A stretch of DNA of 64,000 nucleotides from Pelagibacterium sp. (GCF_048264985.1 NZ_JBLXCL010000009.1:3953-67952), one strand, 5' to 3'. Numbered from the stretch's first letter, positions 23,908 to 41,243 are shown. Notes: generated from the letters alone by a model not told the origin. Translations and numbers: made by a program.

Positions 23908-25734
23908 TCATTCCACAGTTACCGATTTTGCCAGGTTGCGGGGGCGATCGACGTCGAAATTTCGCGCCACAGCGGTGTGATAGGCCAGCAATTGCATGGG
24001 TATTGCCGAAACAATTGGTGCGATTGCGGGATCGACTTGGGGCAATACGATGAGATCGTCGACATCATTGCCTGCAGTGGCAGCGCCTTGTGGATCAGTG
24101 ATCAGAATGACATGTGCTCCCCGCGCGGCAACTTCCTTGAGATTGGAGAGTGTCTTTTCAAACAACTCATCGGTTGGCGCGAGAACGATTATGGGCGTGC
24201 CCTTTTCAACAAGGGCGATAGGGCCGTGCTTTAGCTCACCCGCTGCATAGCCTTCGGCATGAATGTAAGAGATTTCCTTGAGCTTGAGCGCCCCTTCTAA
24301 AGCCAACGGATAAAACGTGCCGCGTCCGAGATAAAGAACGTCACGGGCACCGGCCAGTCGTTTAGCAATCTCGCTCAGGTGCGGTTCGATCTTTAAAGCT
24401 TCGAAAAGCGCCGTTGGAAGCATCATGAGCGCCGCGATGCGCTTGCGCAGAGTGTCAGGGTCGAGCGTACCCCGCAATTGGGCGGCCCTGAGCGCAAGGC
24501 ACAAGAGGATAGCGAGTTGGGATGTGAAGGCCTTGGTGGAGGCAACGCCGATTTCGGCACCGCACAACAGCGGAAAAATAGCTCCGGATTCCCTTGCCAT
24601 TGTCGACTCTTCGACATTGACGACCGAGACAATGTGCTGGCCGTTTTCTGCACAGTGTCGCAGCGCAGCAAGACTGTCGGCAGTCTCGCCCGATTGAGAA
24701 ATCATTAGGGCAAGTCCGCCTTCTATCAAGCGAGGGTGGCGGTAGCGGAACTCGGAGGCGATGTCGATATCGAAGGGCAATGCCGCATAGTGCTCAAACC
24801 AGTATTTGGCTGTGGCGCCAGCATAATAGGCGGATCCGCAAGCCGCTGCAGTAATGCGCGGCAGGGCCGCGAAATCGAATTCGAGTGCAGGCAGGTCACG
24901 CAATGTGCCGGTGGTGGCGTCCACGAACTGGTTGATGGCGCGCGAAATCGTTTCGGGCTGTTCGTGTATTTCCTTGGCCATAAAATGAGGATAGGGAAAT
25001 TTGTCGGCCAGCTCTGCATAGGCGCCGAGCGCGCGTGCGGGGCGCTCGACGCGCAGACCAAGATCGTTAAATATCTCGGCACCCTCAGGCGTGACAACTG
25101 CCCAATCGCCATCCTCAAAATAGGTGATGGTCCGCGATAATGGTGCAAGGGCCAGTGCGTCAGAGCCTATGTACATTTCATTGTCACCATACCCCATGGC
25201 CAATGGCGACCCGCGCCGCGCCGCGATCAGTTCGCGACCATTGCCCTTGAACAGAAACAACAATGCATATGAGCCGCGCAACTGGGCCAATGTCGTCTGC
25301 ACAGCCTCGCGCCCGGTGGCACCATTGTCCATTTCCCGTGTCGCCAAAAGTGCGACAACCTCGGTGTCCGTCTCGGTTACTGTGCGATAGCCTGCCGCTG
25401 CCAGATCGGCGCGCAACTGCATGTAGTTTTCAATGATGCCGTTGTGAACCACGGCAACGTGCTGTGTGCTGTGAGGATGGGCATTGTCCTCTGTCGCTGC
25501 GCCGTGCGTGGCCCATCGTGTGTGCCCGATGCCAATCTTTCCCTCCTGGGGCGTCAGATCGAGCTTGGCTGCCAGATTTTCGAGCTTGCCTTGAGCGCGA
25601 CACCTTACGATCGAACCGGCAACCTGTGTTGCGATACCGGCACTGTCATAGCCGCGATATTCAAGTCGTGTCAGTGCGCTCACCAGTCGATCCGCTACTG
25701 GCCGATTGCCTGCTATCCCGACGATTCCGCACAT
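23908..25734 (-). CDS. glmS: Glutamine--fructose-6-phosphate aminotransferase
   Basis: MCGIVG (catalytic Cys1), RLEYRGYDSAG, GHTRWATHG, SQSGET, VASTKAF, ELKHGPIAL, RNLAKSVTVE. Confidence 0.97.
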   Translation of the reverse strand: MCGIVGIAGNRPVADRLVSALTRLEYRGYDSAGIATQVAGSIVRCRAQGKLENLAAKLDLTPQEGKIGIGHTRWATHGAATEDNAHPHSTQHVAVVHNGIIENYMQLRADLAAAGYRTVTETDTEVVALLATREMDNGATGREAVQTTLAQLRGSYALLFLFKGNGRELIAARRGSPLAMGYGDNEMYIGSDALALAPLSRTITYFEDGDWAVVTPEGAEIFNDLGLRVERPARALGAYAELADKFPYPHFMAKEIHEQPETISRAINQFVDATTGTLRDLPALEFDFAALPRITAAACGSAYYAGATAKYWFEHYAALPFDIDIASEFRYRHPRLIEGGLALMISQSGETADSLAALRHCAENGQHIVSVVNVEESTMARESGAIFPLLCGAEIGVASTKAFTSQLAILLCLALRAAQLRGTLDPDTLRKRIAALMMLPTALFEALKIEPHLSEIAKRLAGARDVLYLGRGTFYPLALEGALKLKEISYIHAEGYAAGELKHGPIALVEKGTPIIVLAPTDELFEKTLSNLKEVAARGAHVILITDPQGAATAGNDVDDLIVLPQVDPAIAPIVSAIPMQLLAYHTAVARNFDVDRPRNLAKSVTVE

Positions 25735-25800
25735 GATCAGCTCCGAGGTGAGGATTGATGGGTTCAATTGCCTTGGTAAGCGAGGCAGGCTGGCCAATTA

Positions 25801-25814
25801 TTGACAATCGTCAA
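25801..25814. promoter_or_regulatory. FixK/FNR-type box in the glmS / T1SS divergent region
   Basis: TTGAC-AATC-GTCAA, with perfectly palindromic arms and 14-bp geometry. Confidence 0.7.
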
Positions 25815-25875
25815 GGTCACAGCAGCGCTGTGTGGGAAAACCGATTTCACGCGCGTGTTTTCTGGAACCAAGATC

Positions 25876-27594
25876 ATGGCATCAAACGATAATCACGGAC
25901 GCAAACTCCGCAAACCTTCCGGGCGCGGTTCTATCCTGGGACTCGGACTTTTAAGCATTATCTCGAACCTGCTGTTGTTGACCGGACCGCTGTTCATGCT
26001 GCAGGTCTACGACAGGGTGCTCGCCAGCAAGTCAGTGCCCACATTGGCAGCGCTGACGGGGCTGGTGGTGGGGCTTTATGGCTTTTACAGCGTCGTCGAA
26101 ATTGTTCGAAGTCGCATGGCCACACGCTATTCGGTGCTTGCAGCTGCGCGTCTGACTCGCCCGGTCTTTGCAAAAGTTGTTGCCACAAGCGCGTCGTCGC
26201 GAAGGGCGATCGATGGAGATCCGATCCGCGACGTGGAGACGCTTCGTCAGTTCCTGGCGGGGGCCGGACCGATTGCCTTACTCGATTTGCCCTGGGTGCC
26301 GGTTTATCTTGCCATCATCTTTGCATTCCATCCCATGCTTGGGTGGCTGGCGGTGGCTGGGGCAGGGGTCGTCACCATTCTCATGGTCCTCAATGAATGG
26401 TCCTCGCGGGCACCCTCGCGCGATGCCAACGCTGCAGCAAATGCGCGCCAGAGCCAGCAGGCCGATATCGCTGCCAATGCCGAAGCGGTGCTGGCCATGG
26501 GAATGCGCGAAACCCTCGCCAAACGCTGGGAGGCGGCCAACACAAAGATGCTGATGACGCAGGCTCATGCCGCCGATCGCGCAACGGCTTTTTCAGCACT
26601 CACCAAAGGTTTTCGGCTGTTGTTACAATCGGCTGTACTAGCCCTGGGCGCTTATCTCGCCATTGGTGGAGACATCTCTGCCGGGCTGATGATCGCTGCC
26701 TCGATCGTCACGGCGCGGGCGCTCTCTCCGGTCGAGCAGGCGGTTTCGAACTGGCGCGGCTTTATTGCTGCGCGGCAGGCAAAGGCCAGGCTCAGGTCTA
26801 TACTTGCCGATGACAAAGGCAGCATCGATCGGGTTGCCTTGCCTTTGCCTCAGACAAGTCTTGCAGTGTCCGAGCTTGCCATATCGCCAATGCCGGATGG
26901 GCCTCCGCTGGTCACAGGGATCAGCTTTGGGCTTAAACCCGGCGAGGCTCTTGGAATTCTGGGCACCTCGGGGTGCGGAAAGTCGTCTTTGATCCGTACA
27001 TTGATGGGAATCTGGCCGGCCCGCGCCGGTGTCGTTCGGCTGGACGGGTCCGAGCTTGACCATTTCGATCCAGACCGGCTGGGCATGGCAATCGGCTATT
27101 TGCCACAGACTGTCGAATTGTTTGCTGGCACCGTTGCGCAGAACATTGCCCGATTTCGCCTTGAGGCGGAGTTTGACGATGTGCTGAAAGCAGCTCAGGC
27201 TGCCGGTGCCCACGACCTTATTGCGTCGCTGCCGCACGGTTACGACACTCCCATCGGTGTCCAGGGCGCCCTGCTTTCAGCGGGGCAGCGCCAACGCATC
27301 GGTCTGGCGCGTGCGCTTTTTGGCGACCCATTTCTTATCGTGCTCGATGAACCCAATTCAAATCTCGATGCAGCTGGCGACGCTGCGTGCAACGCGGCGA
27401 TAGCCGACGCCAAGGCGCGAGGCGCTATCGTCATTGTCGTTGCTCACCGCCCGACCGCCATCGCTGCTGTCGATACCATCCTGTTTCTTCAAGATGGCCG
27501 GCAGGCGGCCTTCGGCCCCAAGGATGCTGTCCTTGCCTCGATAACGGCGCAGCCGGCTTCACTTGAAATTGCCAGGAAAGCGAGGGTGAAATGA
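25876..27594 (+). CDS. Type I secretion ABC transporter, PrtD/AprD family
   Basis: LFMLQVYDRVL, DLPWVPVY, Walker A GTSGCGKS, LSAGQRQR, VLDEPNSNLD; no C39 peptidase domain. Confidence 0.93.
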   Translation: MASNDNHGRKLRKPSGRGSILGLGLLSIISNLLLLTGPLFMLQVYDRVLASKSVPTLAALTGLVVGLYGFYSVVEIVRSRMATRYSVLAAARLTRPVFAKVVATSASSRRAIDGDPIRDVETLRQFLAGAGPIALLDLPWVPVYLAIIFAFHPMLGWLAVAGAGVVTILMVLNEWSSRAPSRDANAAANARQSQQADIAANAEAVLAMGMRETLAKRWEAANTKMLMTQAHAADRATAFSALTKGFRLLLQSAVLALGAYLAIGGDISAGLMIAASIVTARALSPVEQAVSNWRGFIAARQAKARLRSILADDKGSIDRVALPLPQTSLAVSELAISPMPDGPPLVTGISFGLKPGEALGILGTSGCGKSSLIRTLMGIWPARAGVVRLDGSELDHFDPDRLGMAIGYLPQTVELFAGTVAQNIARFRLEAEFDDVLKAAQAAGAHDLIASLPHGYDTPIGVQGALLSAGQRQRIGLARALFGDPFLIVLDEPNSNLDAAGDAACNAAIADAKARGAIVIVVAHRPTAIAAVDTILFLQDGRQAAFGPKDAVLASITAQPASLEIARKARVK

Positions 27595-28907
27595 GCGCCA
27601 TCGACATTGAATATGTAGCTGCACGGAGCCTTGGTCGGCACGCATTGCTCGGCTCGGTTGCCATGATCTCGCTGGTCGGGCGCCTTACGTTCTGGGCGGC
27701 GGTCACTCCAATCGCGGGCGCCGTTGTTGCTGGCGGCAGCGTCGTGGTCGATGGCGGCGTGAGGCGTGTGCAGCATCAAGAAGGCGGCATCGTCAAGGAA
27801 ATCCTTGTGCACAATGATGCCGAAGTCTTGGCCGGCGAAACGCTCGTCGTGCTCGATGGTACACCGGTTGTGGCCAATATGGCTGTGATCGAGGCCCAAT
27901 TGGGCGAGGCCTATATCCGGCAGGCTCGGCTCATGGCAGAGGCCGCGGACTCGACAATCATGGCATGGCCGACCCAACTCGACACCATGCCCGAAATCGA
28001 GCGAAACCGTTTGCTGTTTGCTGCCGAAGATCGCTTAAGAGCCTCGCGGGCAGCAGCGCTTTCGACCCAGGTTGCTCAATTGGGGGAACAGATCGTCCAG
28101 CTCGAGAACCAGGTTGCCGGCTTGGACGCTCAACGCAGCGCGGTGATTGCCCAGACCGAAATCTTGGACGAGCAGCTTGAACGGCTCTCTGCACTTCTGG
28201 CTCAAGGGTTGATCGAGGCGAGCAGGGTCAGCGATTTGCGGCGACAAGTCGCGCAGCTTGACGGAGAAGGCGCCCGTATCACAACCGAGATCGCGCGCGG
28301 AAACGCAGCAACGGCTGAGCGCCGGCTGCAGATATCCCAGGTGCAAGAATCCTATCAAAGTGAAGTACTTGGGCAGTTGCAAGAAACCGGACAGCAGATT
28401 TCCGAGCTGGAGCAGCAAAGGGTAGCAGCTCAGGACCGGCTCGACAGGCTGATCATACGCGCGCCGATCTCAGGCGTCGTGCATCAGATGCAGGTGGCAA
28501 CGCTCGGCGGTATCGCGGGTGCGGGCGAAACGCTGATGCAGATCGTGCCGCTCGACGATGAAATCATGGTCGATGTGCGTATCAATCCACTCGACATCGA
28601 CAAACTCGCCACAGAACAGACGGTGACTTTGCGGCTCTCAAGCTTCAATTCCCGCTCGACGCCGGAACTTGACGGGTTGGTGGACAGGATATCGCCCGAC
28701 CTCACCCGCGACTCAGCTTCCGGCACGCAGTTTTACGTTGTCCGGGTCCGCCTGCCCGCAGAGGAACTGGACAAACTGCCGGAGACGGCGCGGCTCATCC
28801 CCGGTATGCCAGTCGAAGCGTTTTTCGCAACCGGCGAGAAGACAGTGCTAAGTTATCTCGCCAGTCCCGTAGTGGACCAGCTGGCGTTGGCGTTCCGAGA
28901 GGATTGA
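27591..28907 (+). CDS. Type I secretion membrane fusion protein, HlyD/PrtE family
   Basis: VQHQEGGIVKEILV, long coiled coil, IRAPISGVV, LIPGMPVEAF, TVLSYL. Confidence 0.93.
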   Translation: MSAIDIEYVAARSLGRHALLGSVAMISLVGRLTFWAAVTPIAGAVVAGGSVVVDGGVRRVQHQEGGIVKEILVHNDAEVLAGETLVVLDGTPVVANMAVIEAQLGEAYIRQARLMAEAADSTIMAWPTQLDTMPEIERNRLLFAAEDRLRASRAAALSTQVAQLGEQIVQLENQVAGLDAQRSAVIAQTEILDEQLERLSALLAQGLIEASRVSDLRRQVAQLDGEGARITTEIARGNAATAERRLQISQVQESYQSEVLGQLQETGQQISELEQQRVAAQDRLDRLIIRAPISGVVHQMQVATLGGIAGAGETLMQIVPLDDEIMVDVRINPLDIDKLATEQTVTLRLSSFNSRSTPELDGLVDRISPDLTRDSASGTQFYVVRVRLPAEELDKLPETARLIPGMPVEAFFATGEKTVLSYLASPVVDQLALAFRED

Positions 28908-28937
28908 CCTCGCCGTCGAGAGGCGACCTCTCAAGAG

Positions 28938-28962
28938 AAAAGGGGCCTTTGTGGCCCCTTTT
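28938..28962. terminator. Bidirectional intrinsic terminator between the convergent T1SS and RTX genes
   Basis: AAAAGGGGCC-TTTGT-GGCCCCTTTT. Confidence 0.85.
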
Positions 28963-29006
28963 CTATGTTTGGCGTTATGTATTTGCGCCCCCGAAGGGGC
29001 GACTGT

Positions 29007-32000
29007 CTAAAGGATGAAGTCGACTGCGGTCAGATCGATCAGGCCGGACAGCTCGATGCTGAAGTCTGCGATCTGGTCGCCATTGACGTCGGCGGTGACG
29101 ATCGTCTTGTCACCTTCAGTGCCATCAATATCTTCAAACATGAAGCTCAGTTGTCCACGGACGCCGGTAAATGCAGCTCCAGCTCCTGCCAGGAATATGA
29201 AGGCCTGATTGCCTCCCACACCAGCGGCGGCATCGATTATCGAGAGGTCGATAACGTCTTCGCCCTGGGTAAAGTCTGTGATCACGTCGCGACCCAGACT
29301 GTCTGGTCTTGAATGGGCGATATTGCGAAACACAAAGACATCGGAGCCTTCCCCGCCGACCAAGACGTCCTTGCCGCCTCTGCCGTCAAGGACATCATTG
29401 CCCCTGCCGCCTGAAATCATGTTTGCTGCCCCTGAACCAATGATTGTGTCGTTGCCAGAGCCACCGATGATGTTTTCGATCGATCTCAGGCTATCGGTTC
29501 CAGTCTGTGTGCTGGTGGCCGAGTTTGCATTGACTGTAACATCGGCCGAGATGCGTGAGAGATCCAGCACGTCGCTGCCGCTTCCACCGATATAGGTGTC
29601 ATTGCCGTCATCGAGTGTCGCCACGAATATATCGTCGCCGGCATTGCCATAGACCGTGTCATCGCCAGCGTCGCCAAACATGATGTCGTCTCCGCCGCCG
29701 CCCTGGATCGTGTCGTTTCCTGCACCCCCGTGATAGAGATCGGAGGACGAGCCTTTGGGTAGTGTGTCGGCTGAATCGGAACCCACAACATCATTCATGC
29801 CCACAAGATCGAGCGTCGCGCTGGCGAGATCGGTCCTGTCCGCTGTTGCAATCGAATAGGTGAACGTGACATCGGTATCGTCATTGAGAGCTGGAATGAA
29901 CAGCCACGTTCCATCGCCATTGTCGGTCAGTTTGCCCGATGAAGCGACAAGACCAACCACGGCAAAGGCCATGCCGGTGTAGGCCGTGCCGGCCAGGTCA
30001 CGTGAAGTGATGGTGCGCGTCATGTCTTCGTTGAGCGGTGTCAGCGCTACCGGCGGCAAGACATCGGTCACTGCTGCCGTTGCCGATGAGGCTACGCTCT
30101 CCAGCGTACCTCCGACATCGGTGTAGCTCACGATAACCCGGACGAGGGCAAGTGCGTCTTCGTCTGTCAATTTATAGGTGGCGTCGGTGGCGCCGTTGAT
30201 GTTGACGAACCCTGTACCGGTGTCTCGCTGCCATTGATAATTGAGTGTTCCCAAGCCATCGGGATCGGCCAGAGAAGCTACATTGGCACTCAGGGTCTGG
30301 TTTTCGACGGCATTGCCTACGATAGTCACGTCGCCAGTTGGTGCATCGTTACTGTTTGACACGACCACAGAGATTTCCTTGGCAAACACCAGTTCTCCAT
30401 CGGTTGCGGTGATCGTCAAAGCGACCGATGGTTCGGTCTCGAAATCGAACGCGACGCCGGCCTTGCGGTAAAGTGCGCCATCATTGGGATCGATTTCAAA
30501 CCTGTCGTCGGAGACCGTGAGAATGTTCTGGCGCTGGCTGTCGTCGAAATTTGGATCAATGACAAGAAGATCAGCCACTTTAACCCTGTCGAGCAACAGT
30601 TCGGGCACAGCGGCCAAATTGGAGAGCACGATATCGGTCGGTGCAAGGTTTTGGGCCTCCATCCGCACTAGGCTCACACTGTGATCGCCCAGCCCGACAA
30701 GCCGGAGCGTCATGATGCCATCGACAAGGCTGACGATTTCGGCGCCCGAGACGAGGAACTGACTATTGGCCATATCGGCCAGATCGATCGACACCAGGCC
30801 CTCGCCGTTCATCGTGAAAGCAAGGTTGACGCCGTCACCTTCCAGCGTGATCAGCTGCATGCGGGCGCCGATCGAGGTGATGTGGGTGACGTCGGCCTGG
30901 GCGAGACCAAGCTTAATCTCGTAGGTGCCACCATTTGCATCAAGAAAGACTGAATTGCCATCATAGGCATACCAATTGGTAACTGCCGAAATGGTCTGCG
31001 ATCCCAAGGAGTCGAGATTGACGGCAAACGTGCCCAGCGTGCCCGACTGCGGCGTTGCGGTGACGGTAATCGTGTCGCCGTTGACCGCGTAGGTTAGTTC
31101 CGTCTTCTCGAAAGTCGCTATCCGGGCGGCGAGGTCTGCGAGCGTTACAAACTCGGAGCCTGCGGCATGGGCTGCACCGAGCAATTCGGTGAACATGGCG
31201 AGGGTATAGGGCGATGAGCCCGTGCCCTCTATATCCCAGGATGTGACACCGTAATCATGCCAAGGCCAGACCACGATCGGCAGGTCGGAATTGATCGTCA
31301 GGTCGTTGAATTCGGCAATCCATTTCGCGGCCGCTTGTTCAGCGGTCAGCCCCAACCAACCAAGAAGCGTGAAATCGAAGCTCATATTGGGCGCTATGTA
31401 GACTTTATCGGTATCGGTGGGCGAGAGGTAGCCCAGAGCACCGGGATAACCCGCGCCGACCATGGACGCGCCGCCGGTCAGATAATCGTAATACTGAATA
31501 ATCTGGCGCGCCGTCTCCAGCGATTCGGGCATGCCGGGCACCGCCGCGCCGCCCACCACAATCCCAAGATTATCTTCTATGACGTGACGCGACGTCTCGA
31601 ACTGGAACTTGAACGATGCCTCCAGAATGGCCTTCGATACGGGATCGAGAGCCATCGGGTCGGGCGCTAACAGGGCCGATTGCAGTGTCGCGTTGATCTG
31701 GGCGACGCTCATCTGGGCCAGCGCGTCGATGACCGACTGATCGGCGTCGTCGCGCATGCAGTACGGACAGAAACATGCCGAGGGATTATCGAGCATAGCC
31801 GCATAGCCCGCGATGCGCTGATCGAGGATATCCTGGGTCACTTCGTCGGGCAGCAATAAGTTGGTATCGAACGGGTGCGAATAGGAGTGCGACCCGATTT
31901 CGTTGCCCATTGCCAGAAGCTGTTGGTAATAGGAGGACGAAATGAACCAGTTTGTATCCTGATCGGGGCTATAGAGCCCGACATTGACGTAGTAGGAGCC

Positions 32001-35000
32001 GACAAAATTGTAGTCGGTTTTCCACTGATCGAGAATTGGCATCATGGCGTCGTAGATACCGTTATCGACGTCGTACGTCTCCTGGGACTGGTCCATATCG
32101 TTGCGCGAGGCAACAATAGCGTTATCTCTGCTCATGGACAGCGAGACCTTCGGCCCGTCAATTGACTGGGTGACCCAGTCGATCGACTGCCCGAGCAGAT
32201 TGTTATCGGCCAGCATGCCCTCGGTGGCGAAATGAACGTTGCGTCCGCCGGTAGTGGTCGAGATTACAGCGTCGTGGCTCGTGCCGTTGACGACCTGCTG
32301 AGCGATGACAGTGCCGGTGCCCGCAGCGACAGTCGAGAAGTACGAAGTCGCAGCGCCTGTATAGGTATGAATCGCGCCTCCGCCGTATCCGGCGGTGATC
32401 TCGTGGTTACCTGTCGCGACAAGATTGACGTCGACACCGTTTTCTCCGCCCGTGCGCGTCAAACCCAGGAGAGTCTGCATGCGTTCATAGGGGTTCGCCG
32501 ACAACGCATCGCCATCGGCAGCATTGGTCATGAAATCGCCAGCCGTGATTATCGGCACGTCGTAGTCATAAACAAGTTGGTTGAGCGTAGCGGCGATATC
32601 GGCGTAATTTTCCGGGGCGTTTCTGAAAGAAGGGAACACGAGGGCCTTGTACTGCGCCATGAGCTCAAGATCGGTAAGATCGGCTTCCCCGATCAAATCG
32701 AAGGGAATACCCGCGCTCATTGCCTGGCTTTGTGCAGCCATGACCAGCTGTGAATAGGCCATCTCCGAGAAATAGGCGCTGGCGGTTGTTTGCGAATAGA
32801 CGATGGCGATCTTGTAGTTTGCCGACGCCAGTGGCGGCAGGCTGGCGGGGTCCGTAATGGTGTATGCCGGCTGGGTATAGTCGGCTGGCAGATGCACGAC
32901 GTCATTGACGTCCGCCATAAGCCCGATCTTGTTGAGCTCGGTCCCAAGCAGCGATTTGGGAATGGCAAGCTCGATCGACTTGCCGTCGGGCCCAAGTGCA
33001 AAGTCGATTTCGGCCACCAGCGTTTCCCCGGCGTTTCCGGTATAGAGGCGTGCGCGGCCGTCATTGTCGATATTGACGTTGAATTCCGCACCAACGGCCC
33101 ATCCCCAGACCAGATGGCCAGTTGACGTATTGCCGTCAGTGTTGATCCAGAATGTCGTGTTCGGACCGATCTCGACTGCGCTTTTAAGAGCGACGACAAA
33201 CGCGTCATTGGCGACCGTACCGAACAGCTCATAACCCTCAATAAGCGTGGTTGGCGTTTCAATGCGCTGGCTTTGCGTCCATTCGCTTAGGATGCCATCA
33301 AATGCGCTTACCGGCGGCAGGCCAATGGTGTAACCTCCATAGCCGTAGTTGTTGGGGAGGAAAACCGTGTCGTTGACATCGCTAAGTACCGCAATTTCTT
33401 CGATGCCCGTGCCCAGAAGGTCTTTTGGAAGCGCGAATTCGAGCGTGGTCCCGTCAGCGCCAAAAGCATGGTCCAGATCGGCTACAAATATTTCCCCAGC
33501 AGCGCCTGAATAGAGCCGGGCTATGCCATCCGCGCCGATGTTAACGTTGAATTCTGCACCACCTGCCCAGCCCCAAATCTGATGACCCGTGCCCGAGCTG
33601 CCATCAGTGTTGATCCAGAATGTTGTGTTCGGGCCAATTGGTTGGGCGCTCTTGAGTGCAACGACGAATTGTTCGGAATCGACGCGGCCGTAAAGCTCAT
33701 AGCCCGCGATGCCGGTGCCTTCCCCTTCGAGCCGCTGGTCGGGCGTCCATTCGGTCAGCAGGCCGTCAAAGCTCGAACTGGGCGTTTCAATCAACAGGTA
33801 ACCACCGGTGCCGTAGTTGGCGGGGAGGAATACTGAATCGTTGATATCGGCCAAAATCTGTACTGATTGCTCGAAGCCGAGAGTCTGCTTGGGAACTGAA
33901 AACTCGATGCTCAATCCATCAGCTGAGATTGCAAAATCAATGTCGGAGACGAAGGTTTCGCCAGCGGCACCGGAGTAAAGCCGGGCAATGCCGTTGCTGT
34001 CGATATTGACGTTGAACTCGGCTCCGGCTGCCCAGCCGAACACCTGATGTCCCGTTGCGGTATTGCCGTCGGTATTGAGCCAGAACGTGGAACCCGGTCC
34101 TATCGGCTGGGCACTGGAAAGTGCAAAAACGACCTGGTCTGGGTCGACACGGCCATACATAGCGTAGCCATCGACACCGCCCAATTGGGTGTCGAGCCTT
34201 TCGTCTTCGGTCCATTCCGACAGCACGCCGTCAAAAGAGGAAGCCGGTTCTTCGACCAACGTGTAACCGCCGGTGCCGTAGTTGGCGGGGAGGAATACTG
34301 AATCGTTGATATCGGCGAGAATTTGGACTGATTGATCGAATCCAAGCGTTTGTTTGGACACTGAAAACTCGATGCTCATTCCGTTTGGAGCAAGCGCGAA
34401 GTCGACGTCGGAAACAAAAATTTCACCGGCGGCACCAGAATAGAGGCGGGCGATCCCGTCGCCGTCGATGTTGACGTTGAATTCGGCACCCGCTGCCCAT
34501 CCGAATATCTGGTGTCCGGTTGCGGTATTGCCGTCGGTGTTGAGCCAGAACGTCGAACCTGGCCCGATTGGCTGGGCGCTCGACAATGCGAAAACGACCT
34601 CGTCGGATTCGACGCGCCCGTACATTGCATAGCCATCGACGACGCCCAACTGGGTGTCGAGCCGCTGTTCTTCAGTCCACTCGGCCAACAGACCGTCAAA
34701 TGAGCTGGATGAAGGCTGGGTGACGAGGTAGCCACCTTCCGCGTAAGACGAGGGCAGAAATACCGAATTGTTGATATCGGCATAGACCGTGAGTGAGGTT
34801 ACGGCCAAGCCGACCAGAGCCTGCGGCAATTTCATTTCCAGGATCGTCCCCCCGGCGCCGAGCAGGTACTCGATTTCCGCGACAAGGGTCGCACCTTCCG
34901 AACCGGAATAGAGTCTGGCGATCCCATCGGTGCCGAAATTGATGTTAAACTCCGCGCCAACGGCCCAATCCCAGACTTTGTGCCCAGTTTCGCTATCGGC

Positions 35001-35180
35001 ATCGGTGTTGAGCCAGAACGTCGTGTTGGGACCAATGGGCTCGGCACTTTCCAGTGCGATCAGGTAAGCCCCATCCTCGTACCGGCCGAACAGCGCATAG
35101 CCGTCGACGAGGGTTTCGGGCCGCTCGAGACGATCGTCCGGGGACCAGTCAGTGAGAGTTCCGTCAAGGATGATGGTCAT
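29007..35180 (-). CDS. 2057-aa T1SS-secreted RTX protein: five ~155-aa repeats, GATase-like/DUF2194-like domain, CE4/NodB-like polysaccharide deacetylase, cadherin/Ig-like domains, Ca-binding GGxGxD repeats and a serralysin-type C-terminal domain
   Basis: No signal peptide. Deacetylase motifs SRNDMDQ (~32089-32108), GNEIGSHSYSHP (~31873-31905) and PWHDY (~31251-31268). Cadherin-like APTDI...FDFETEPS...ITATDG. Multiple GGAGND/GGSGND/GGRGND nonapeptides and a C-terminal ADFSIELSG...DFIL. Confidence 0.85.
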   Translation of the reverse strand: MTIILDGTLTDWSPDDRLERPETLVDGYALFGRYEDGAYLIALESAEPIGPNTTFWLNTDADSETGHKVWDWAVGAEFNINFGTDGIARLYSGSEGATLVAEIEYLLGAGGTILEMKLPQALVGLAVTSLTVYADINNSVFLPSSYAEGGYLVTQPSSSSFDGLLAEWTEEQRLDTQLGVVDGYAMYGRVESDEVVFALSSAQPIGPGSTFWLNTDGNTATGHQIFGWAAGAEFNVNIDGDGIARLYSGAAGEIFVSDVDFALAPNGMSIEFSVSKQTLGFDQSVQILADINDSVFLPANYGTGGYTLVEEPASSFDGVLSEWTEDERLDTQLGGVDGYAMYGRVDPDQVVFALSSAQPIGPGSTFWLNTDGNTATGHQVFGWAAGAEFNVNIDSNGIARLYSGAAGETFVSDIDFAISADGLSIEFSVPKQTLGFEQSVQILADINDSVFLPANYGTGGYLLIETPSSSFDGLLTEWTPDQRLEGEGTGIAGYELYGRVDSEQFVVALKSAQPIGPNTTFWINTDGSSGTGHQIWGWAGGAEFNVNIGADGIARLYSGAAGEIFVADLDHAFGADGTTLEFALPKDLLGTGIEEIAVLSDVNDTVFLPNNYGYGGYTIGLPPVSAFDGILSEWTQSQRIETPTTLIEGYELFGTVANDAFVVALKSAVEIGPNTTFWINTDGNTSTGHLVWGWAVGAEFNVNIDNDGRARLYTGNAGETLVAEIDFALGPDGKSIELAIPKSLLGTELNKIGLMADVNDVVHLPADYTQPAYTITDPASLPPLASANYKIAIVYSQTTASAYFSEMAYSQLVMAAQSQAMSAGIPFDLIGEADLTDLELMAQYKALVFPSFRNAPENYADIAATLNQLVYDYDVPIITAGDFMTNAADGDALSANPYERMQTLLGLTRTGGENGVDVNLVATGNHEITAGYGGGAIHTYTGAATSYFSTVAAGTGTVIAQQVVNGTSHDAVISTTTGGRNVHFATEGMLADNNLLGQSIDWVTQSIDGPKVSLSMSRDNAIVASRNDMDQSQETYDVDNGIYDAMMPILDQWKTDYNFVGSYYVNVGLYSPDQDTNWFISSSYYQQLLAMGNEIGSHSYSHPFDTNLLLPDEVTQDILDQRIAGYAAMLDNPSACFCPYCMRDDADQSVIDALAQMSVAQINATLQSALLAPDPMALDPVSKAILEASFKFQFETSRHVIEDNLGIVVGGAAVPGMPESLETARQIIQYYDYLTGGASMVGAGYPGALGYLSPTDTDKVYIAPNMSFDFTLLGWLGLTAEQAAAKWIAEFNDLTINSDLPIVVWPWHDYGVTSWDIEGTGSSPYTLAMFTELLGAAHAAGSEFVTLADLAARIATFEKTELTYAVNGDTITVTATPQSGTLGTFAVNLDSLGSQTISAVTNWYAYDGNSVFLDANGGTYEIKLGLAQADVTHITSIGARMQLITLEGDGVNLAFTMNGEGLVSIDLADMANSQFLVSGAEIVSLVDGIMTLRLVGLGDHSVSLVRMEAQNLAPTDIVLSNLAAVPELLLDRVKVADLLVIDPNFDDSQRQNILTVSDDRFEIDPNDGALYRKAGVAFDFETEPSVALTITATDGELVFAKEISVVVSNSNDAPTGDVTIVGNAVENQTLSANVASLADPDGLGTLNYQWQRDTGTGFVNINGATDATYKLTDEDALALVRVIVSYTDVGGTLESVASSATAAVTDVLPPVALTPLNEDMTRTITSRDLAGTAYTGMAFAVVGLVASSGKLTDNGDGTWLFIPALNDDTDVTFTYSIATADRTDLASATLDLVGMNDVVGSDSADTLPKGSSSDLYHGGAGNDTIQGGGGDDIMFGDAGDDTVYGNAGDDIFVATLDDGNDTYIGGSGSDVLDLSRISADVTVNANSATSTQTGTDSLRSIENIIGGSGNDTIIGSGAANMISGGRGNDVLDGRGGKDVLVGGEGSDVFVFRNIAHSRPDSLGRDVITDFTQGEDVIDLSIIDAAAGVGGNQAFIFLAGAGAAFTGVRGQLSFMFEDIDGTEGDKTIVTADVNGDQIADFSIELSGLIDLTAVDFIL
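32840..35180 (-). repeat. Five tandem intragenic repeats of about 465 bp (155-156 aa)
   Basis: FDG motifs start at 34700, 34235, 33770 and 33302. An identical 47-bp stretch occurs at 34270-34316 and 33805-33851. Shared motifs are DGxLxEW, FWxNTDG..TG, GAEFNVN and ARLYSG. Confidence 0.92.
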
Positions 35181-35854
35181 AGGAGTGTCTCCTGTGCAAA
35201 GGGGGCCGGGGCCCTTTCAGATGACCGCCACTCAGCGGTTTCATCCATTGCTATTGGTGATTTTAGGCGATTGAGGCGTTCCAAATCGTGTTGACTGGCC
35301 AGCCCGTATGCTCTGCCCAACTCGATAGTGGCGCGCTCACCGGTGCGGTCGCCCTCAAGTCGATACAGTCCGATCAAACGGCGGTAGGCTGGAATGGAGG
35401 GTTCCCTTGCAAAGATCTGGGCAAGGATGCGAGCTTCGTTGCCATAAGCGTTATCGCCCCGGTAGAGATCAACAAGCATGGGCCGCGCCCAGTCGCTTTG
35501 AGGGCGAGTTGCGATCTCGTCTTCAAGCAGGCGAGTAAGAAGGCTTGTCTCTGCCTGGGTCTGATAGAGCCCGGCGAGAGAATATGCTTCGAAGGGGTTG
35601 AGGCGTGTCGTTTCGCGCTTTGTCTCATAGAGTTGTACAGCTTCGCCGATCCGACCCTGTGAAAGCAGAACCTGAGCCTTCTCTTCGGTGTTGGGCAGCA
35701 TTGCGAAGGCAGCAATGGTGGTCATTGCCACAATGATCGCAACGAAGATTTGCGTGCGGTCGGGGGAGTCTATGCGCGACATGAAGCCCAAAGGCGCGAA
35801 GCCGGTACGTTGGAACGGCCGGTATGTGGACTTGTGGTCAACGAGAGTGTGCAT
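35177..35854 (-). CDS. Membrane-anchored TPR-like protein (PelB-TPR-like, no beta-barrel); alternative start 35782
   Basis: One hydrophobic helix (IFVAIIVAMTTIAAFAML) followed by helical repeats (LLSQGRIGEAVQLYE; LVDLYR; YRRLIGLYR). Its stop overlaps the RTX ATG (ATGA coupling). Confidence 0.6.
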   Translation of the reverse strand: MHTLVDHKSTYRPFQRTGFAPLGFMSRIDSPDRTQIFVAIIVAMTTIAAFAMLPNTEEKAQVLLSQGRIGEAVQLYETKRETTRLNPFEAYSLAGLYQTQAETSLLTRLLEDEIATRPQSDWARPMLVDLYRGDNAYGNEARILAQIFAREPSIPAYRRLIGLYRLEGDRTGERATIELGRAYGLASQHDLERLNRLKSPIAMDETAEWRSSERAPAPFAQETLL

Positions 35855-36749
35855 TGTCGAGCTCCCTATCGCCGATGAATAGCAATACTCCCAGGGTTGC
35901 CGCGTCTTCGCGGGCCTGGGCGACATCTGAGGATGCGCTTAGATATTCGGAGACAAATACAGGCTTGCCCTCGGCTGTCAGACGACTGAGAAGCTCCAGG
36001 GAAGCGCGTACTGTGCCCAGTCTGTTTCGCTGATTGTCATGTTCGGCGCCAAACAGAAGATCTTCCTTGGCCAGTCCGTCGATTGTTCGGCGATATGAGG
36101 GGGTTGCCAGCAGCTCTTCGCCGTTCTGTGGCATTATGATGAAGTCGGGATCCTTGGCGCGTGCGTAGATGGCGAGGGCGGTGACGAAATTCACCATCTC
36201 GCTTTCGCGTTGCGCCCTTTTGAGTTGGGGGTCGGGGCGTTCGAACGCGTCGACGCGATCGAGATATACTCCGTCGAAGCCTGCTGCCATGATCTGGTCG
36301 AGATAACTGGTGGGCTCGCCAAAGATGATTGCCTGCCAATCGGGATCCCAAAAGCGGACGTCATAATTGCCTTCCCATTCGGGGTTGGCTGCGAACAGCC
36401 ATGTCGGCCTGTCTTGCGCCCAATCGTCTTGCCAATAGAAGCGGTAGTCTTCCGCTTCGCCGATCGAAAGATAGGATAGGACGATCCGTCGCGACCCGTC
36501 AGGCTTTGTCCTAAGGTTGGCGATCTCGGTGGCTGAAAAGGTCTGGGCCGCAGTTCCGTTGCGTGAATAGTCGATCACCACCAGGTCATAGTTGCTGGCG
36601 GCAAGGACATGCAGATCAATGCCCTGAAGTTGGTAGGTCCATGATCCAACTCCAGCCAGTGCCGAAACTGCCGCGTTACTCGCCTGTGGCGAGAGCATAA
36701 GCGGAAATGCTGCCAGGACGGCAGCCAGTCCAGCAATGCGTATACCCAT
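35838..36749 (-). CDS. GH114-like / TM1410-MJ1477 family endo-alpha-1,4-polygalactosaminidase (PelA hydrolase analogue) with Sec signal peptide
   Basis: WTYQLQ, YDLVVID, SYLSIGEAEDYRFYW, VRFWDPDWQ, GFDGVYLDRVD (putative catalytic Asp), QNGEEL, FVSEY (putative catalytic Glu). Confidence 0.85.
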   Translation of the reverse strand: MGIRIAGLAAVLAAFPLMLSPQASNAAVSALAGVGSWTYQLQGIDLHVLAASNYDLVVIDYSRNGTAAQTFSATEIANLRTKPDGSRRIVLSYLSIGEAEDYRFYWQDDWAQDRPTWLFAANPEWEGNYDVRFWDPDWQAIIFGEPTSYLDQIMAAGFDGVYLDRVDAFERPDPQLKRAQRESEMVNFVTALAIYARAKDPDFIIMPQNGEELLATPSYRRTIDGLAKEDLLFGAEHDNQRNRLGTVRASLELLSRLTAEGKPVFVSEYLSASSDVAQAREDAATLGVLLFIGDRELDNAHSR

Positions 36750-36823
36750 GTCGCAACTCTCCCATTCGCCCGGTCAATCGCTCGGGCCGTATCGAACACT
36801 ATGGGCGGCATGCGCGCACAATA

Positions 36824-36837
36824 TTGACATTCATCAA
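36824..36837. promoter_or_regulatory. FixK/FNR-type box in the GH114 / pelE divergent region
   Basis: TTGAC-ATTC-ATCAA. If centred at -41.5, the -10 positions read CATTAT (36860-36865, +) and TAGTGT (36801-36796, -). Confidence 0.75.
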
Positions 36838-36924
36838 CTCGGAGACTTCTGGGACCCGACATTATTGGCGCCGGTTCACAAAAAACGTTCGGGAAGCCGA
36901 ACTCAGAACAACAGGGTGACTAAG

Positions 36925-37626
36925 ATGGTACTGTCCCTCAATTCCTCGCTCGGGGCGCAACCTGCCCCTTTTACCGCCAAGCCGGCCATCAAGGCGCTGT
37001 TTGCCGGTCTGAAAACCGTGGTGTTTGCCACCGAGGCTGTCGGCATCGTCTTTTTGGCGCTCGGCCATATCGACCTGGCGATGGCCATGTTCTTGCATCT
37101 TGGTCTTTGTCTCGTGATGCTTGGCGTTATCCTTTTTGTCGAACGCAAGAATATCTATTCGGGCGACCTGCAAGCATTTGCCCTGCAGGTGATGGTTGCC
37201 GGCCCGTTCGGCGCGGCTTCCGCGATGATCGATGAACAGCTTTCGTCCCGCGTGCGCGCCGAACGCCTTGAGCGTTGGTACAACACGATCGCGCCGGTGC
37301 CAGTGCCCGCCGTGACCCTCGCCGACCGCATTCTTGACGATCAGGTGGTCCGGCCAGCGGCACGGCTACCAAAATCTGTCGACCGGCTGATCATGTCAGG
37401 GTCCATGCGGGAGAAGCAGGCGCTTTTTGCTTCGATCGTTGCCGACGGGCCGGTAGACGGCGGTAATCTCATCGAAAAAGCACTGCGCAGCCGCGATCAG
37501 CGGGTCCGGGTGCAAGCGGCGGCCGTTTCAGCGCTGTTCCGCTCCAAGGTGCGCACCAGCGCCGGACACCGTCATCAGGCGAGCATCGTGGTGCCCGCCA
37601 ACGATGCAACAACACCTGCAGCATAG
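36925..37626 (+). CDS. PelE-like inner-membrane protein
   Basis: Two or three TM helices, then a HEAT-like segment (GSMREKQALF...IEKALRSRDQRVRVQAAA); directly upstream of pelF. Confidence 0.6.
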   Translation: MVLSLNSSLGAQPAPFTAKPAIKALFAGLKTVVFATEAVGIVFLALGHIDLAMAMFLHLGLCLVMLGVILFVERKNIYSGDLQAFALQVMVAGPFGAASAMIDEQLSSRVRAERLERWYNTIAPVPVPAVTLADRILDDQVVRPAARLPKSVDRLIMSGSMREKQALFASIVADGPVDGGNLIEKALRSRDQRVRVQAAAVSALFRSKVRTSAGHRHQASIVVPANDATTPAA

Positions 37627-37638
37627 GGGCTCACGACG

Positions 37639-39168: not shown

Positions 39169-39171
39169 AAA

Positions 39172-40566: not shown

Positions 40567-40603
40567 CCCCCCGCAGCCGTCACCATAACTGAGGAAAATT
40601 GCA

Positions 40604-41140
40604 GTGAACGTACATGCTCAAAATACCGCCAGTCCAAGAATGCTGCTGGGGGAAACCGGCAGCGGTCCTTCCAATCACTGGGTCGGCGTGGTTGAAGGCG
40701 CGGTTATGATTGGGGGTTTGTTTGCAGTTGAACGCTTGGGGTTGCTCGACCTCCAGATGCTGCCCATCCACCCATTGGTCCTTGCCGTTGCTCTTATCGC
40801 TGCCCAGTACGGAGCATCAGGCGGCATCATGGCTGCAGCGATGGCCACGGCTCTTGCTCTATTGGGTGGCACCTTGCCTCAAAGAGTGATTGGCGAGGGA
40901 TATTTCGAATATCTCGCTGCTGTCTGGACCACGCCATTGGCCTGGTTGGTCATTGCGGTAACGGTGGGAATAATTTCGGACGGGCACAGGCGCTTGCTGC
41001 AGCGGTCCGAGCTGGCTCTGTTTGAAGTCAAGAAAGAGCGCGATCTGATTGCGGCGCAATACGAGGCTTTGGCCGCCCGTGCCAAGCGGCTTGAACGCCG
41101 TGTGGCGGGGATTGAAGGCCCGGCTTCTGCACTCAAGTGA
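40604..41140 (+). CDS. PelD-like membrane protein consisting only of the N-terminal TM domain and coiled coil (no GAF/GGDEF)
   Basis: HPLVLAVALIAAQYGASGG, four TM helices, and a coiled coil ending ERDLIAAQYEALAARAKRLERRV; 178 aa. Confidence 0.55.
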   Translation: MNVHAQNTASPRMLLGETGSGPSNHWVGVVEGAVMIGGLFAVERLGLLDLQMLPIHPLVLAVALIAAQYGASGGIMAAAMATALALLGGTLPQRVIGEGYFEYLAAVWTTPLAWLVIAVTVGIISDGHRRLLQRSELALFEVKKERDLIAAQYEALAARAKRLERRVAGIEGPASALK

Positions 41141-41243
41141 AAACGGCGCAGCGTCAATATCGTAGAATCACTAGTGGAAGAACCGGAATTTATTAACAAA
41201 TGTTTAACGCCCATACTCCTGGCAACAGGGAAGGGACAAGCAA

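What the first reader, a model, noticed from the sequence alone, without database searches (positions are those of the whole stretch)
25801..36837. FixK/FNR boxes in both divergent promoters tie the four transcription units together
Seen: TTGAC-AATC-GTCAA (25801-25814) between glmS and prtD, and TTGAC-ATTC-ATCAA (36824-36837) between GH114 and pelE. For the second box, -41.5 geometry puts CATTAT and TAGTGT at the -10 positions in the two directions. The local FixK has the ETVSR helix that reads TTGAT-N4-ATCAA-type sites. At uniform base composition TTGAY-N4-RTCAA occurs about once per 262 kb, so two hits in these short intergenic regions are unlikely by chance; I did not scan the window exhaustively. 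Inference: FixK co-activates precursor supply, secretion, modification and synthesis.
Basis: partly seen in the sequence, partly recalled or inferred. Interest (0 to 1): 0.78.

Follow-up and report, generated by a model that had tools for sequence, protein, structure and literature searches.

The report
Conserved FixK boxes controlling a biofilm-matrix locus
Two perfect FNR/FixK-type operator sites sit in the two divergent promoter regions of a Pelagibacterium gene cluster for a Pel-like polysaccharide and a secreted giant adhesin. They are conserved in every relative that has the cluster, so the cluster's own FixK-like regulator very probably switches all its operons on together, although its partner kinase seems to have lost the haem that would sense oxygen.

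Summary
TTGACAATCGTCAA (25801-25814) and TTGACATTCATCAA (36824-36837) lie in the glmS<>ABC-exporter and GH114<>pelE-like intergenic regions. The window holds 3 perfect sites against 0.34 expected. The genome holds 18, against about 7 expected, and 11 of them lie in the 13% that is non-coding.

Both boxes are perfect in all 7 Pelagibacterium genomes that carry the locus. Box 2 is also perfect in 4 more distant metagenome contigs. The surrounding DNA diverges, and -10-like hexamers stay exactly 22 nt from each box edge.

The locus always carries a FixK2-like regulator with the recognition helix LTLETVSRA, plus a FixJ/FixL-like pair. Three locus-bearing species have lost the paralogous Fe-S regulator FnrN yet keep both boxes.

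- glmS is a second copy and is absent next to box 1 in 2 of 7 species.
- The FixL-like kinase lacks the haem-ligating histidine in every pel-linked ortholog, so oxygen control through it is doubtful.
- FnrN could also bind these boxes in this genome.

No binding, transcription-start or expression data could be obtained. This is a well-supported new regulon of a known regulator type.

The parts
25801..25814 (.). Box 1, TTGACAATCGTCAA. FNR/FixK-type operator shared by the divergent glmS2 and prtD-like promoters. Its centre is 73.5 nt from the glmS ATG and 68.5 nt from the prtD ATG.
   Evidence: Identical in 6 genomes; TTGACGGCCATCAA in G006.
36824..36837 (.). Box 2, TTGACATTCATCAA. FNR/FixK-type operator shared by the divergent GH114 and pelE-like promoters. 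Its centre is 81.5 nt and 94.5 nt from the two ATGs.
   Evidence: Perfect in 7 genomes and 4 metagenome contigs.
36860..36865 (+). Predicted -10 hexamer CATTAT of the pelE-like operon promoter, 22 nt from the box edge. Predicted transcription start near 36872.
   Evidence: GACATTAT is invariant in the 6 close genomes; CATGAA/CATGAG sits at the same spacing in G006 and L059.
36796..36801 (-). Predicted -10 hexamer TAGTGT of the GH114-TPR-RTX operon promoter, 22 nt from the box edge. Predicted transcription start near 36789.
   Evidence: GACACTA is conserved in 6 genomes and in L054 and L056.
25773..25778 (-). Candidate -10 hexamer TACCAA for glmS2, 22 nt from the box 1 edge. Predicted transcription start near 25766.
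   Evidence: TTGGTA is conserved in the genomes that keep glmS here.
25831..25843 (+). Invariant block TGTGGGAAAACCG at the place where the prtD-side -10 is expected. It is not a canonical -10 and its role is unexplained.
   Evidence: It is also one arm of an imperfect inverted repeat flagged.
23908..25734 (-). glmS2, a second copy of glutamine-fructose-6-phosphate aminotransferase (62% identical to the copy on contig C1).
   Evidence: Absent or a remnant at this position in G015 and G016.
25876..28907 (+). Type I secretion operon: an ABC exporter (PrtD-like, 572 aa) and a HlyD-family adaptor (438 aa) with overlapping stop and start codons.
29007..36749 (-). Operon of GH114 glycoside hydrolase (35838-36749), a 225-aa membrane-anchored TPR-like protein (35177-35854) and a 2057-aa RTX/cadherin-domain protein (29007-35180). 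The genes overlap at their junctions.
36925..41140 (+). Pel-like synthesis operon: a 233-aa membrane protein (pelE-like, no family hit), PelF (DUF3492 + GT4), PelG, and a 166-178-aa membrane/coiled-coil protein.
41153..41216 (+). Almost invariant block of about 65 nt upstream of fixK. It includes CGGAATTT (41184-41191), which matches the CSNAATWT motif reported for FixJ-dependent promoters. This is the candidate FixJ-dependent fixK promoter.
   Evidence: Motif quoted from PMC4999443. Chance probability is about 0.05, so this is only suggestive.
41244..41891 (+). Locus-encoded FixK-like CRP/FNR regulator. It has no N-terminal Cys cluster, and its recognition helix LTLETVSRA is identical to that of FixK2.
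42014..44087 (-). fixL-like (42630-44087) and fixJ (42014-42646) operon. FixJ passes the NCBIfam equivalog cut-off. The FixL-like PAS domain lacks the haem-proximal His.

Best explanation
Each box is an operator for a dimeric CRP/FNR-family activator of the FNR/FixK specificity class (E--SR recognition helix, TTGA-N6-TCAA).

A single dimer bound at each box lies about 41.5 bp upstream of two back-to-back promoters that have no -35 element. It would recruit RNA polymerase in both directions (class II activation). Box 2 would drive GH114-TPR-RTX adhesin to the left and pelE-like-pelF-pelG-p166 to the right. Box 1 would drive the type I secretion operon prtD-hlyD to the right and, where present, the extra glmS copy to the left.

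fixK itself is probably transcribed from its own strongly conserved promoter under the adjacent FixJ, with a haem-less FixL-like kinase above it. The whole matrix module (polysaccharide synthesis, processing, adhesin and its exporter) would then be one regulon switched by one two-component input.

Shown here: the sites, their statistics, their conservation and geometry, the regulator's helix, and the co-inheritance. Inferred: binding, the direction of the effect, the cascade, and the signal.
For: 1. The motif is real in this genome. There are 18 perfect sites against about 7 expected, and 11 of 18 are intergenic. Other intergenic sites sit at classical targets: cydDC<>cydAB, usp, hemF and nqrA-like.
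2. Phylogenetic footprint. Both boxes are perfect in 7 of 7 Pelagibacterium genomes that have the locus, while the flanking intergenic DNA diverges. Box 2 is also perfect in contigs whose FixK is only 72, 60, 58 and 48% identical.
3. Geometry. -10-like hexamers sit exactly 22 nt from both edges of box 2 and are conserved. No full sigma-70 promoter is found in either intergenic region.
4. Regulator. Its best solved relative is FixK2 (4I2O, E = 9e-28), with an identical LTLETVSRA helix. It has no Cys cluster. Orthologs of at least 78% identity occur only in the 6 close locus-bearing genomes, always after p166, and homologs of 48-72% identity sit in the same architecture.
5. Discrimination from FnrN. 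G003, G015 and G016 lack an FnrN ortholog; it is cleanly deleted in G003 and G016. The other CRP/FNR proteins that were read in these genomes have HVNR helices (two weaker G016 matches were not read). Both boxes are nevertheless intact.
6. The classical FixK target fixNOQP is absent from this 99.99%-complete genome, so this FixK needs other targets.
Against: - There is no binding, transcription-start or expression evidence of any kind.
- This genome also encodes an FnrN/FnrL-type regulator with the same ETVSR helix. FnrN and FixK sites are reported to be indistinguishable (PMC4999443).
- G006 keeps both boxes although it has lost fixK and fixLJ. It retains a different CRP/FNR protein (ETISR helix) at the same place, and FnrN, so FixK is not indispensable for keeping the boxes.
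- The prtD side of box 1 has no recognisable -10.
- The local protein scores 132 bits against a 300-bit cut-off for the NCBIfam FixK equivalog.
Confidence: 0.68

Rival explanations
1. The boxes are read mainly by the housekeeping oxygen-labile Fe-S regulator FnrN/FnrL (contig C8, next to cydDC-cydAB). The matrix locus would then be a branch of the general low-oxygen regulon, and the local FixK-like protein would have another or only an auxiliary role.
For: - The C8 protein has the N-terminal CxxCx7C motif and the ETVSR helix, and its best NCBIfam hit is FnrL.
- Its cydAB box is conserved in 14 genomes, including those without the locus.
- FnrN and FixK share one consensus (PMC4999443).
- G006 lacks fixK, keeps FnrN, and keeps both boxes.
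Against: - G003, G015 and G016 have no FnrN ortholog, yet both boxes are perfect there.
- A CRP/FNR regulator is physically part of the locus in all 11 genomes or contigs examined.
Confidence: 0.15
2. The boxes are true FixK/FNR operators, but the bound protein represses or acts as a roadblock rather than activating. The matrix genes would then be shut off when the regulator is active.
For: - The box overlaps the -35 region of both promoters, a position from which CRP/FNR proteins can also repress (general knowledge).
- The left half-site TTGACA equals the sigma-70 -35 consensus.
Against: - No -10-like hexamer lies 16-18 nt from TTGACA in either orientation (read directly; one search finds no sigma-70 promoter there).
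- The conserved -10s lie 22 nt from the box edges, which is the class II activation arrangement.
Confidence: 0.1
3. The two matches are chance occurrences or fossil sites with no present function.
For: - The third perfect site in the window (22845) and the perfect ybaK-upstream site (C2:239472) are not conserved and look like chance.
Against: - Perfect conservation in 7 to 11 independent genomes, within otherwise diverged or barely alignable intergenic DNA.
- The chance of a perfect site in a ~180-bp spacer is below 1e-3 per genome.
Confidence: 0.02

Closest known systems
FixLJ-FixK2 cascade and FixK2 box of Bradyrhizobium diazoefficiens (structure 4I2O)
   Same: - CRP/FNR regulator without an Fe-S cluster.
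- Identical recognition helix LTLETVSRA.
- TTGA-N6-TCAA palindromes.
- Genetic linkage to a FixJ equivalog and a FixL-like kinase.
   Different: - The targets are a Pel-like polysaccharide and T1SS/RTX adhesin locus, not fixNOQP or haem/respiration genes. fixNOQP is absent from the genome.
- The kinase lacks the haem-ligating His.
- The module is embedded in, and inherited with, its target locus.
- It scores below the NCBIfam FixK equivalog cut-off.
FnrN -> SinR control of biofilm maturation in Agrobacterium tumefaciens (Ramey et al. 2004, as reviewed in PMC4018554)
   Same: - An FNR-family member without an oxygen-sensing cluster that controls biofilm.
- It coexists with an Fe-S FnrN that recognises the same type of box.
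   Different: - In Agrobacterium the biofilm-relevant target genes are unknown and sinR is itself the box-bearing gene.
- Here the boxes lie directly in the promoters of the matrix structural genes.
- The regulator appears to be driven by FixJ, not by an FNR box.
One CRP dimer activating two divergent class II promoters in E. coli (malX/malI; El-Robh and Busby 2002; from my own knowledge, not checked here)
   Same: - A single palindromic site centred about 41.5 bp from two back-to-back transcription starts about 83 bp apart.
- No -35 elements.
   Different: - A different regulator subfamily and signal.
- Here the arrangement occurs twice in one locus, and the starts are predicted rather than mapped.
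FixK taking over FnrN sites after loss of fnrN in Caulobacterales (PMC4999443)
   Same: - In G003 and G016 fnrN is deleted, but the cydAB box is retained and the only E--SR regulator found is the locus FixK.
   Different: - This happens within one genus and recently.
- The FixK concerned is attached to a polysaccharide locus rather than to fixNOQP.
Pel regulation in Pseudomonas aeruginosa (FleQ and c-di-GMP at the promoter, PelD as c-di-GMP receptor; own knowledge)
   Same: - PelF and PelG synthesis core, and a GH114-type hydrolase.
   Different: - No GAF/GGDEF PelD, no PelB and no PelC detected by Pfam.
- The transcriptional input is predicted to be a CRP/FNR-type activator.

Membership tests
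FNR/FixK-type operator at a class II promoter | Palindrome matching TTGAT-N4-ATCAA (TTGA-N6-TCAA core) | tested here: met
   Both sites match TTGAY-N4-RTCAA perfectly.
FNR/FixK-type operator at a class II promoter | Non-random occurrence in regulatory DNA of the genome | tested here: met
   18 sites against about 7 expected, and 11 of 18 intergenic, p = 2.7e-6.
FNR/FixK-type operator at a class II promoter | Conservation in orthologous promoters | tested here: met
   7 of 7 genomes for both boxes, plus 4 contigs for box 2.
FNR/FixK-type operator at a class II promoter | Centre near -41.5 relative to a mapped transcription start | tested here: inconclusive
   Conserved -10-like hexamers lie 22 nt from both edges of box 2 and from the glmS side of box 1. 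There is none on the prtD side. No transcription-start data exist.
FNR/FixK-type operator at a class II promoter | Bound by the regulator | not testable with these tools
   Needs EMSA, footprinting or ChIP.
FixK subgroup of CRP/FNR regulators | cNMP-binding-like domain plus Crp-type HTH | tested here: met
   PF00027, PF13545 and PF00325.
FixK subgroup of CRP/FNR regulators | E--SR recognition helix | tested here: met
   LTLETVSRA, identical to FixK2 in 4I2O.
FixK subgroup of CRP/FNR regulators | No N-terminal Cys cluster for an Fe-S centre | tested here: met
   The sequence has none. The C8 paralog has CRNCEVRHRGLC.
FixK subgroup of CRP/FNR regulators | Passes the curated NCBIfam FixK equivalog cut-off | tested here: not met
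   NF050806 scores 132 bits against a 300-bit cut-off. A 46%-identical homolog sits in a canonical fixNOQP-fixGHIS-fixLJ-fixK cluster.
FixK subgroup of CRP/FNR regulators | Linked to and controlled by FixLJ | tested here: inconclusive
   The adjacent FixJ passes its equivalog cut-off (272 against 255 bits). A conserved upstream block carries a CSNAATWT match. Control itself was not tested.
FixL haem-based oxygen sensor kinase | PAS-HisKA-HATPase architecture with closest similarity to FixL | tested here: met
   (best NCBIfam hit is FixL at 352 bits, below the 850-bit cut-off).
FixL haem-based oxygen sensor kinase | Proximal haem-ligating histidine in the F-alpha helix | tested here: not met
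   It aligns to Arg. No His is conserved in 10 pel-linked orthologs and the segment is hypervariable. The canonical-context FixL in L058 keeps RREHDGY.
Pel polysaccharide system | PelF glycosyltransferase and PelG | tested here: met
   PF11997 + GT1, and PF16933 at E = 1e-111.
Pel polysaccharide system | PelD c-di-GMP receptor (GAF + degenerate GGDEF), PelB, PelC | tested here: not met
   No Pfam or NCBIfam hit for the 233-aa, 225-aa and 166-aa proteins, and no such domains anywhere in the locus.

The most novel reading that the evidence does not exclude
A FixLJ-FixK cascade has been detached from oxygen and respiration and rebuilt as the private switch of a biofilm-matrix island. A FixL derivative that has lost its haem ligand, and so senses something other than O2, would phosphorylate FixJ. 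FixJ would turn on fixK. FixK bound at two bidirectional operators would then fire all four operons for a Pel-like polysaccharide, its hydrolase, a giant RTX adhesin and its exporter. This would replace the c-di-GMP/PelD control of classical Pel systems.
Probability: 0.35. Interest if true: 0.7.

Novelty: new member of a known kind. Interest (0 to 1): 0.5.

Why it matters
FNR/FixK regulons reconstructed in Alphaproteobacteria are essentially respiratory and nitrogen-fixation regulons (PMC4999443). Where FNR-type or FixLJ systems affect biofilm (Agrobacterium SinR/FnrN, Burkholderia FixLJ), the direct matrix targets are unknown (PMC4018554, PMC5234846).

This locus offers a clean and directly testable case. 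It has two perfect operators, predicted transcription starts, a dedicated regulator, and natural fnrN-minus and fixK-minus species.

It also shows how a Pel-like system that lacks the c-di-GMP receptor PelD may be controlled. Finally, it provides a FixL homolog that has evidently changed its sensory chemistry.

Tried and rejected
1. TTGACA read as an ordinary sigma-70 -35 element. Rejected: no -10-like hexamer lies 16-18 nt away in either direction, and the consensus scan finds no promoter in either spacer.
2. Splitting sites into TTGAT-type (FnrN) and TTGAC-type (FixK) classes. Rejected: cydAB boxes in FixK-less genomes also carry TTGAC halves.
3. Co-evolution of the central N4 with the replaced regulator in G006. 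Weakened: contig L059 has the same N4 (AGCC) yet still encodes FixK with the unchanged helix.
4. The perfect site upstream of ybaK (C2:239472) as a further regulon member. It is present only in this genome.
5. One-mismatch sites. They show no intergenic enrichment, so they were not used.
6. Rfam search of 22000-46000. Nothing credible was found.
8. The search for related loci in genome contigs returned only three loci that were already held, but it named the genus.
9. A literature search for the phrase 'FixJ box' found nothing. The FixJ motifs were taken from PMC4999443 instead.

Full report
**What is there**

The window is contig C9:3953-67952 of a 3.82-Mb, 58% G+C genome. Related loci place it in the genus Pelagibacterium.

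Around the finding, Pfam and NCBIfam give the following genes:
- glmS (23908-25734, minus strand).
- Divergent from it, a type I secretion pair: an ABC exporter (25876-27594) and a HlyD adaptor (27591-28907).
- A convergent minus-strand operon: GH114 hydrolase (35838-36749), a 225-aa anchored TPR-like protein (35177-35854) and a 2057-aa RTX/cadherin protein (29007-35180).
- Divergent from GH114, a 233-aa membrane protein, then PelF, PelG and a 166-178-aa membrane/coiled-coil protein (36925-41140).
- A 215-aa CRP/FNR regulator (41244-41891).
- Convergent to the regulator, a fixL-like and fixJ operon (42014-44087, minus strand).

The local glmS is a second copy, 62% identical to one on contig C1.

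An exhaustive scan of the window gives three perfect TTGAYN4RTCAA sites against 0.34 expected, and none of 100 shuffles reaches three. The third site (22845) is inside a dehydrogenase gene and is not conserved.

In the whole genome there are 18 perfect sites against 6.9 expected from composition (Poisson p = 3e-4). With a rough gene caller that I wrote (87% coding) and the corrected prtD start, 11 of 18 are intergenic (binomial p = 2.7e-6). One-mismatch variants are not enriched (62 of 435 intergenic).

Other intergenic perfect sites sit at textbook FNR/FixK targets: between cydDC and cydAB, and upstream of a universal stress protein, hemF and an nqrA-like gene. The motif is therefore a live regulon signal in this organism.

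**Phylogenetic footprint**

Six other species of the genus carry the same locus, at 41-92% protein identity and fully syntenic.
- Box 1 is TTGACAATCGTCAA in six genomes and TTGACGGCCATCAA in the most distant one, G006 (P. sediminicola).
- Box 2 is TTGACATTCATCAA in five, TTGACATTGATCAA in one and TTGACAGCCGTCAA in G006.

The surrounding spacer is variable, and against G006 it is barely alignable.

Homologs of the local regulator at 72, 60, 58 and 48% identity, found on metagenome contigs, all lie in the same architecture: RTX, TPR and GH114 on one strand; pelE-like, pelF, pelG, a small protein and fixK on the other; then fixJ and fixL. Each contig again has a perfect box 2.

A perfect site by chance in a ~180-bp spacer is expected in fewer than 1 in 1000 genomes, so chance is excluded.

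**Geometry**

At box 2, CATTAT (36860-36865) and, on the other strand, TAGTGT (36796-36801) each lie exactly 22 nt from a box edge. This places the box centre at -41.5 of starts predicted at 36872 and 36789, which are 83 bp apart. Both hexamers are conserved in the six close genomes and recognisably in the distant ones.

TTGACA cannot be a conventional -35 because nothing -10-like lies 16-18 nt away, and a sigma-70 consensus scan finds no promoter in either spacer.

At box 1, the glmS side has TACCAA at 22 nt, conserved wherever glmS is present. The prtD side has only an invariant block, TGTGGGAAAACCG (25831-25843), and no canonical -10. That promoter is the least well explained.

**Which protein reads the boxes**

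The genome has two regulators with the ETVSR helix.

The first is the local protein. Its best solved relative is FixK2 (4I2O, E = 9e-28), with an identical LTLETVSRA helix. It has no N-terminal Cys cluster. Its best NCBIfam hit is the FixK equivalog, though at 132 bits it is below the 300-bit cut-off. A 46%-identical homolog sits in a canonical fixNOQP-fixGHIS-fixLJ-fixK cluster.

The second, on contig C8 next to cydDC-cydAB, has CRNCEVRHRGLC at its N-terminus and hits FnrL best. It is an FnrN/FnrL-type Fe-S oxygen sensor. Its cydAB box is conserved in 14 genomes of the genus, including those without the matrix locus.

Published work states that FnrN and FixK sites cannot be told apart by sequence (PMC4999443). 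My attempt to split TTGAT from TTGAC classes also failed.

Three facts favour the local FixK:
1. Orthologs of at least 78% identity occur in exactly the six close locus-bearing genomes and always directly after the small protein. More distant homologs keep that linkage.
2. G003, G015 and G016 have no FnrN ortholog. In G003 and G016 the gene is cleanly excised, leaving 228 bp between its neighbours. The other CRP/FNR proteins that I read in these genomes carry HVNR helices; two weaker G016 matches were not read. Both boxes remain perfect.
3. The classical FixK target, the cbb3 oxidase operon, is absent from this 99.99%-complete genome.

Against exclusivity, G006 has lost fixK and fixLJ but keeps both boxes, FnrN, and a different 300-aa CRP/FNR protein (ETISR helix) at the same position. 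Contig L059 has both regulators in tandem, and the extra one has its own perfect box, TTGACAATAGTCAA.

The boxes are therefore best described as FNR/FixK-class operators served primarily by the locus regulator, with cross-talk from FnrN possible in this genome.

**Corrections to the interpretation**

- The 'precursor supply' arm is facultative. In G015 glmS is absent, and in G016 only a 37-residue remnant is left beside box 1. The neighbouring genes there run in the same direction as prtD, yet the box is unchanged. Box 1 is therefore maintained for the exporter operon.
- Oxygen control through FixL is doubtful. The PAS domain is clearly FixL-like (E = 3e-26 to the Sinorhizobium meliloti haem domain, PDB 1D06), but the proximal His aligns to Arg. 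Across ten pel-linked orthologs that helix is hypervariable, has indels and contains no conserved His. The canonical-context FixL of L058 keeps RREHDGY.
- fixK has no FixK box of its own. It is preceded by a ~65-nt block (41153-41216) that is nearly invariant across species. This block contains CGGAATTT, a match to the CSNAATWT element reported for FixJ-dependent promoters (PMC4999443). By chance this has p of about 0.05, so it is only suggestive.

**Mechanism proposed**

An unknown signal acts on the haem-less FixL-like kinase. The kinase phosphorylates FixJ, and FixJ activates fixK transcription. A FixK dimer at box 1 and at box 2 then activates back-to-back class II promoters. This co-expresses the polysaccharide synthase genes, the GH114/TPR/RTX adhesin operon, its type I exporter and, in most species, an extra GlmS.

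Only the sequence anatomy, statistics, conservation and gene linkage are shown. Binding, the sign of regulation, the cascade and the signal are inferred.

**Comparison with what is known**

The operator, the regulator class and bidirectional class II activation are all known kinds. The FixLJ-FixK2 cascade is the closest family. Agrobacterium FnrN/SinR (PMC4018554) and Burkholderia FixLJ (PMC5234846) are the closest functional precedents for a link to biofilm, but their direct matrix targets are not defined.

A full-text search found no report of FixK/FNR boxes at pel-like or T1SS-adhesin promoters.

I therefore file this as a new member of a known kind. The more novel reading, a haem-less FixLJ-FixK module repurposed as the private switch of a matrix island, is kept as a possibility at about 0.35.

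**Limits**

Gene calls outside the locus come from my own rough caller. Only selected regulon members were checked for conservation.

Noticed in passing
window 42630-44087 (FixL-like; PAS residues about 165-190): The haem-proximal His of FixL aligns to Arg. In all 10 pel-linked orthologs this helix is hypervariable, has indels and has no conserved His. A FixL in a canonical fixNOQP context (L058) keeps RREHDGY. The kinase is probably not a haem oxygen sensor.
   Followed up: yes
window 41153-41216: A block of about 65 nt upstream of fixK is nearly invariant across species, more conserved than the flanking genes. It contains CGGAATTT (41184-41191), matching the CSNAATWT element of FixJ-dependent promoters, and a TTAAC-N6-TTAAC repeat. 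It is a candidate FixJ site and fixK promoter.
   Followed up: partly
G003:C1:679500-687000 (L052) and G016:C1:1078500-1086000 (L053), compared with G000 C8:39778-40530: fnrN is cleanly deleted in two species, leaving a 228-bp gap between its neighbours, and is absent from a third (G015). The cydAB box is unchanged in G003 and G016. This suggests the locus FixK has taken over FnrN sites, as proposed for Caulobacterales.
   Followed up: partly
window 23908-25734; L009:2221-2331; L011: The glmS next to box 1 is a second genomic copy, 62% identical to C1:1640365-1642188. It has been lost from this position in two species, one of which retains a short N-terminal remnant.
   Followed up: yes
window 25831-25862: The invariant block TGTGGGAAAACCG and the downstream CGCGTGTTTTC(C/T)GGAACC form an imperfect inverted repeat (GGAAAAC / GTTTTCC) between box 1 and the prtD start codon. 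It could be a second operator or a leader hairpin. No covariation is available to decide.
   Followed up: partly
window 36887-36902: A conserved hairpin, GTTCG-N6-CGAAC, lies in the predicted 5' leader of the pelE-like operon. The stem is kept while the loop varies among species, and one G-U change occurs in G016. On the minus strand it is followed by a T run.
   Followed up: no
L059:6887-7894 and G006 (L013, reverse-complement coordinates 17350 onward): A sub-lineage carries an extra CRP/FNR regulator of about 300 aa (ETISR helix, no Cys cluster) between the small membrane protein and fixK, with its own perfect box TTGACAATAGTCAA. G006 keeps only this regulator (its box has degenerated to TTGACAATAGTTAA) and has lost fixK and fixLJ.
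   Followed up: partly
window 22845-22858: A third perfect box, TTGATAGCGGTCAA, lies inside a D-2-hydroxyacid dehydrogenase gene. It is not conserved in G016, so it is probably chance.
   Followed up: yes
whole genome G000: No FixO (cbb3 oxidase) gene is present in a 99.99%-complete assembly. The only box-bearing high-affinity oxidase is cydAB.
   Followed up: yes
window 45636-45649: A one-mismatch site, TTGACTTGCGCCAA, lies in the spacer between the ChrR-like anti-sigma operon and an amine-oxidase/DUF1365 operon.
   Followed up: no
window 35177-35926: The 249-aa ORF is really 225 aa. The upstream 24 codons are not open in relatives (there is a stop in G003). The protein is a single-pass anchor plus TPR-like helices with faint TPR hits in a homolog, and it overlaps both neighbouring genes.
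   Followed up: partly
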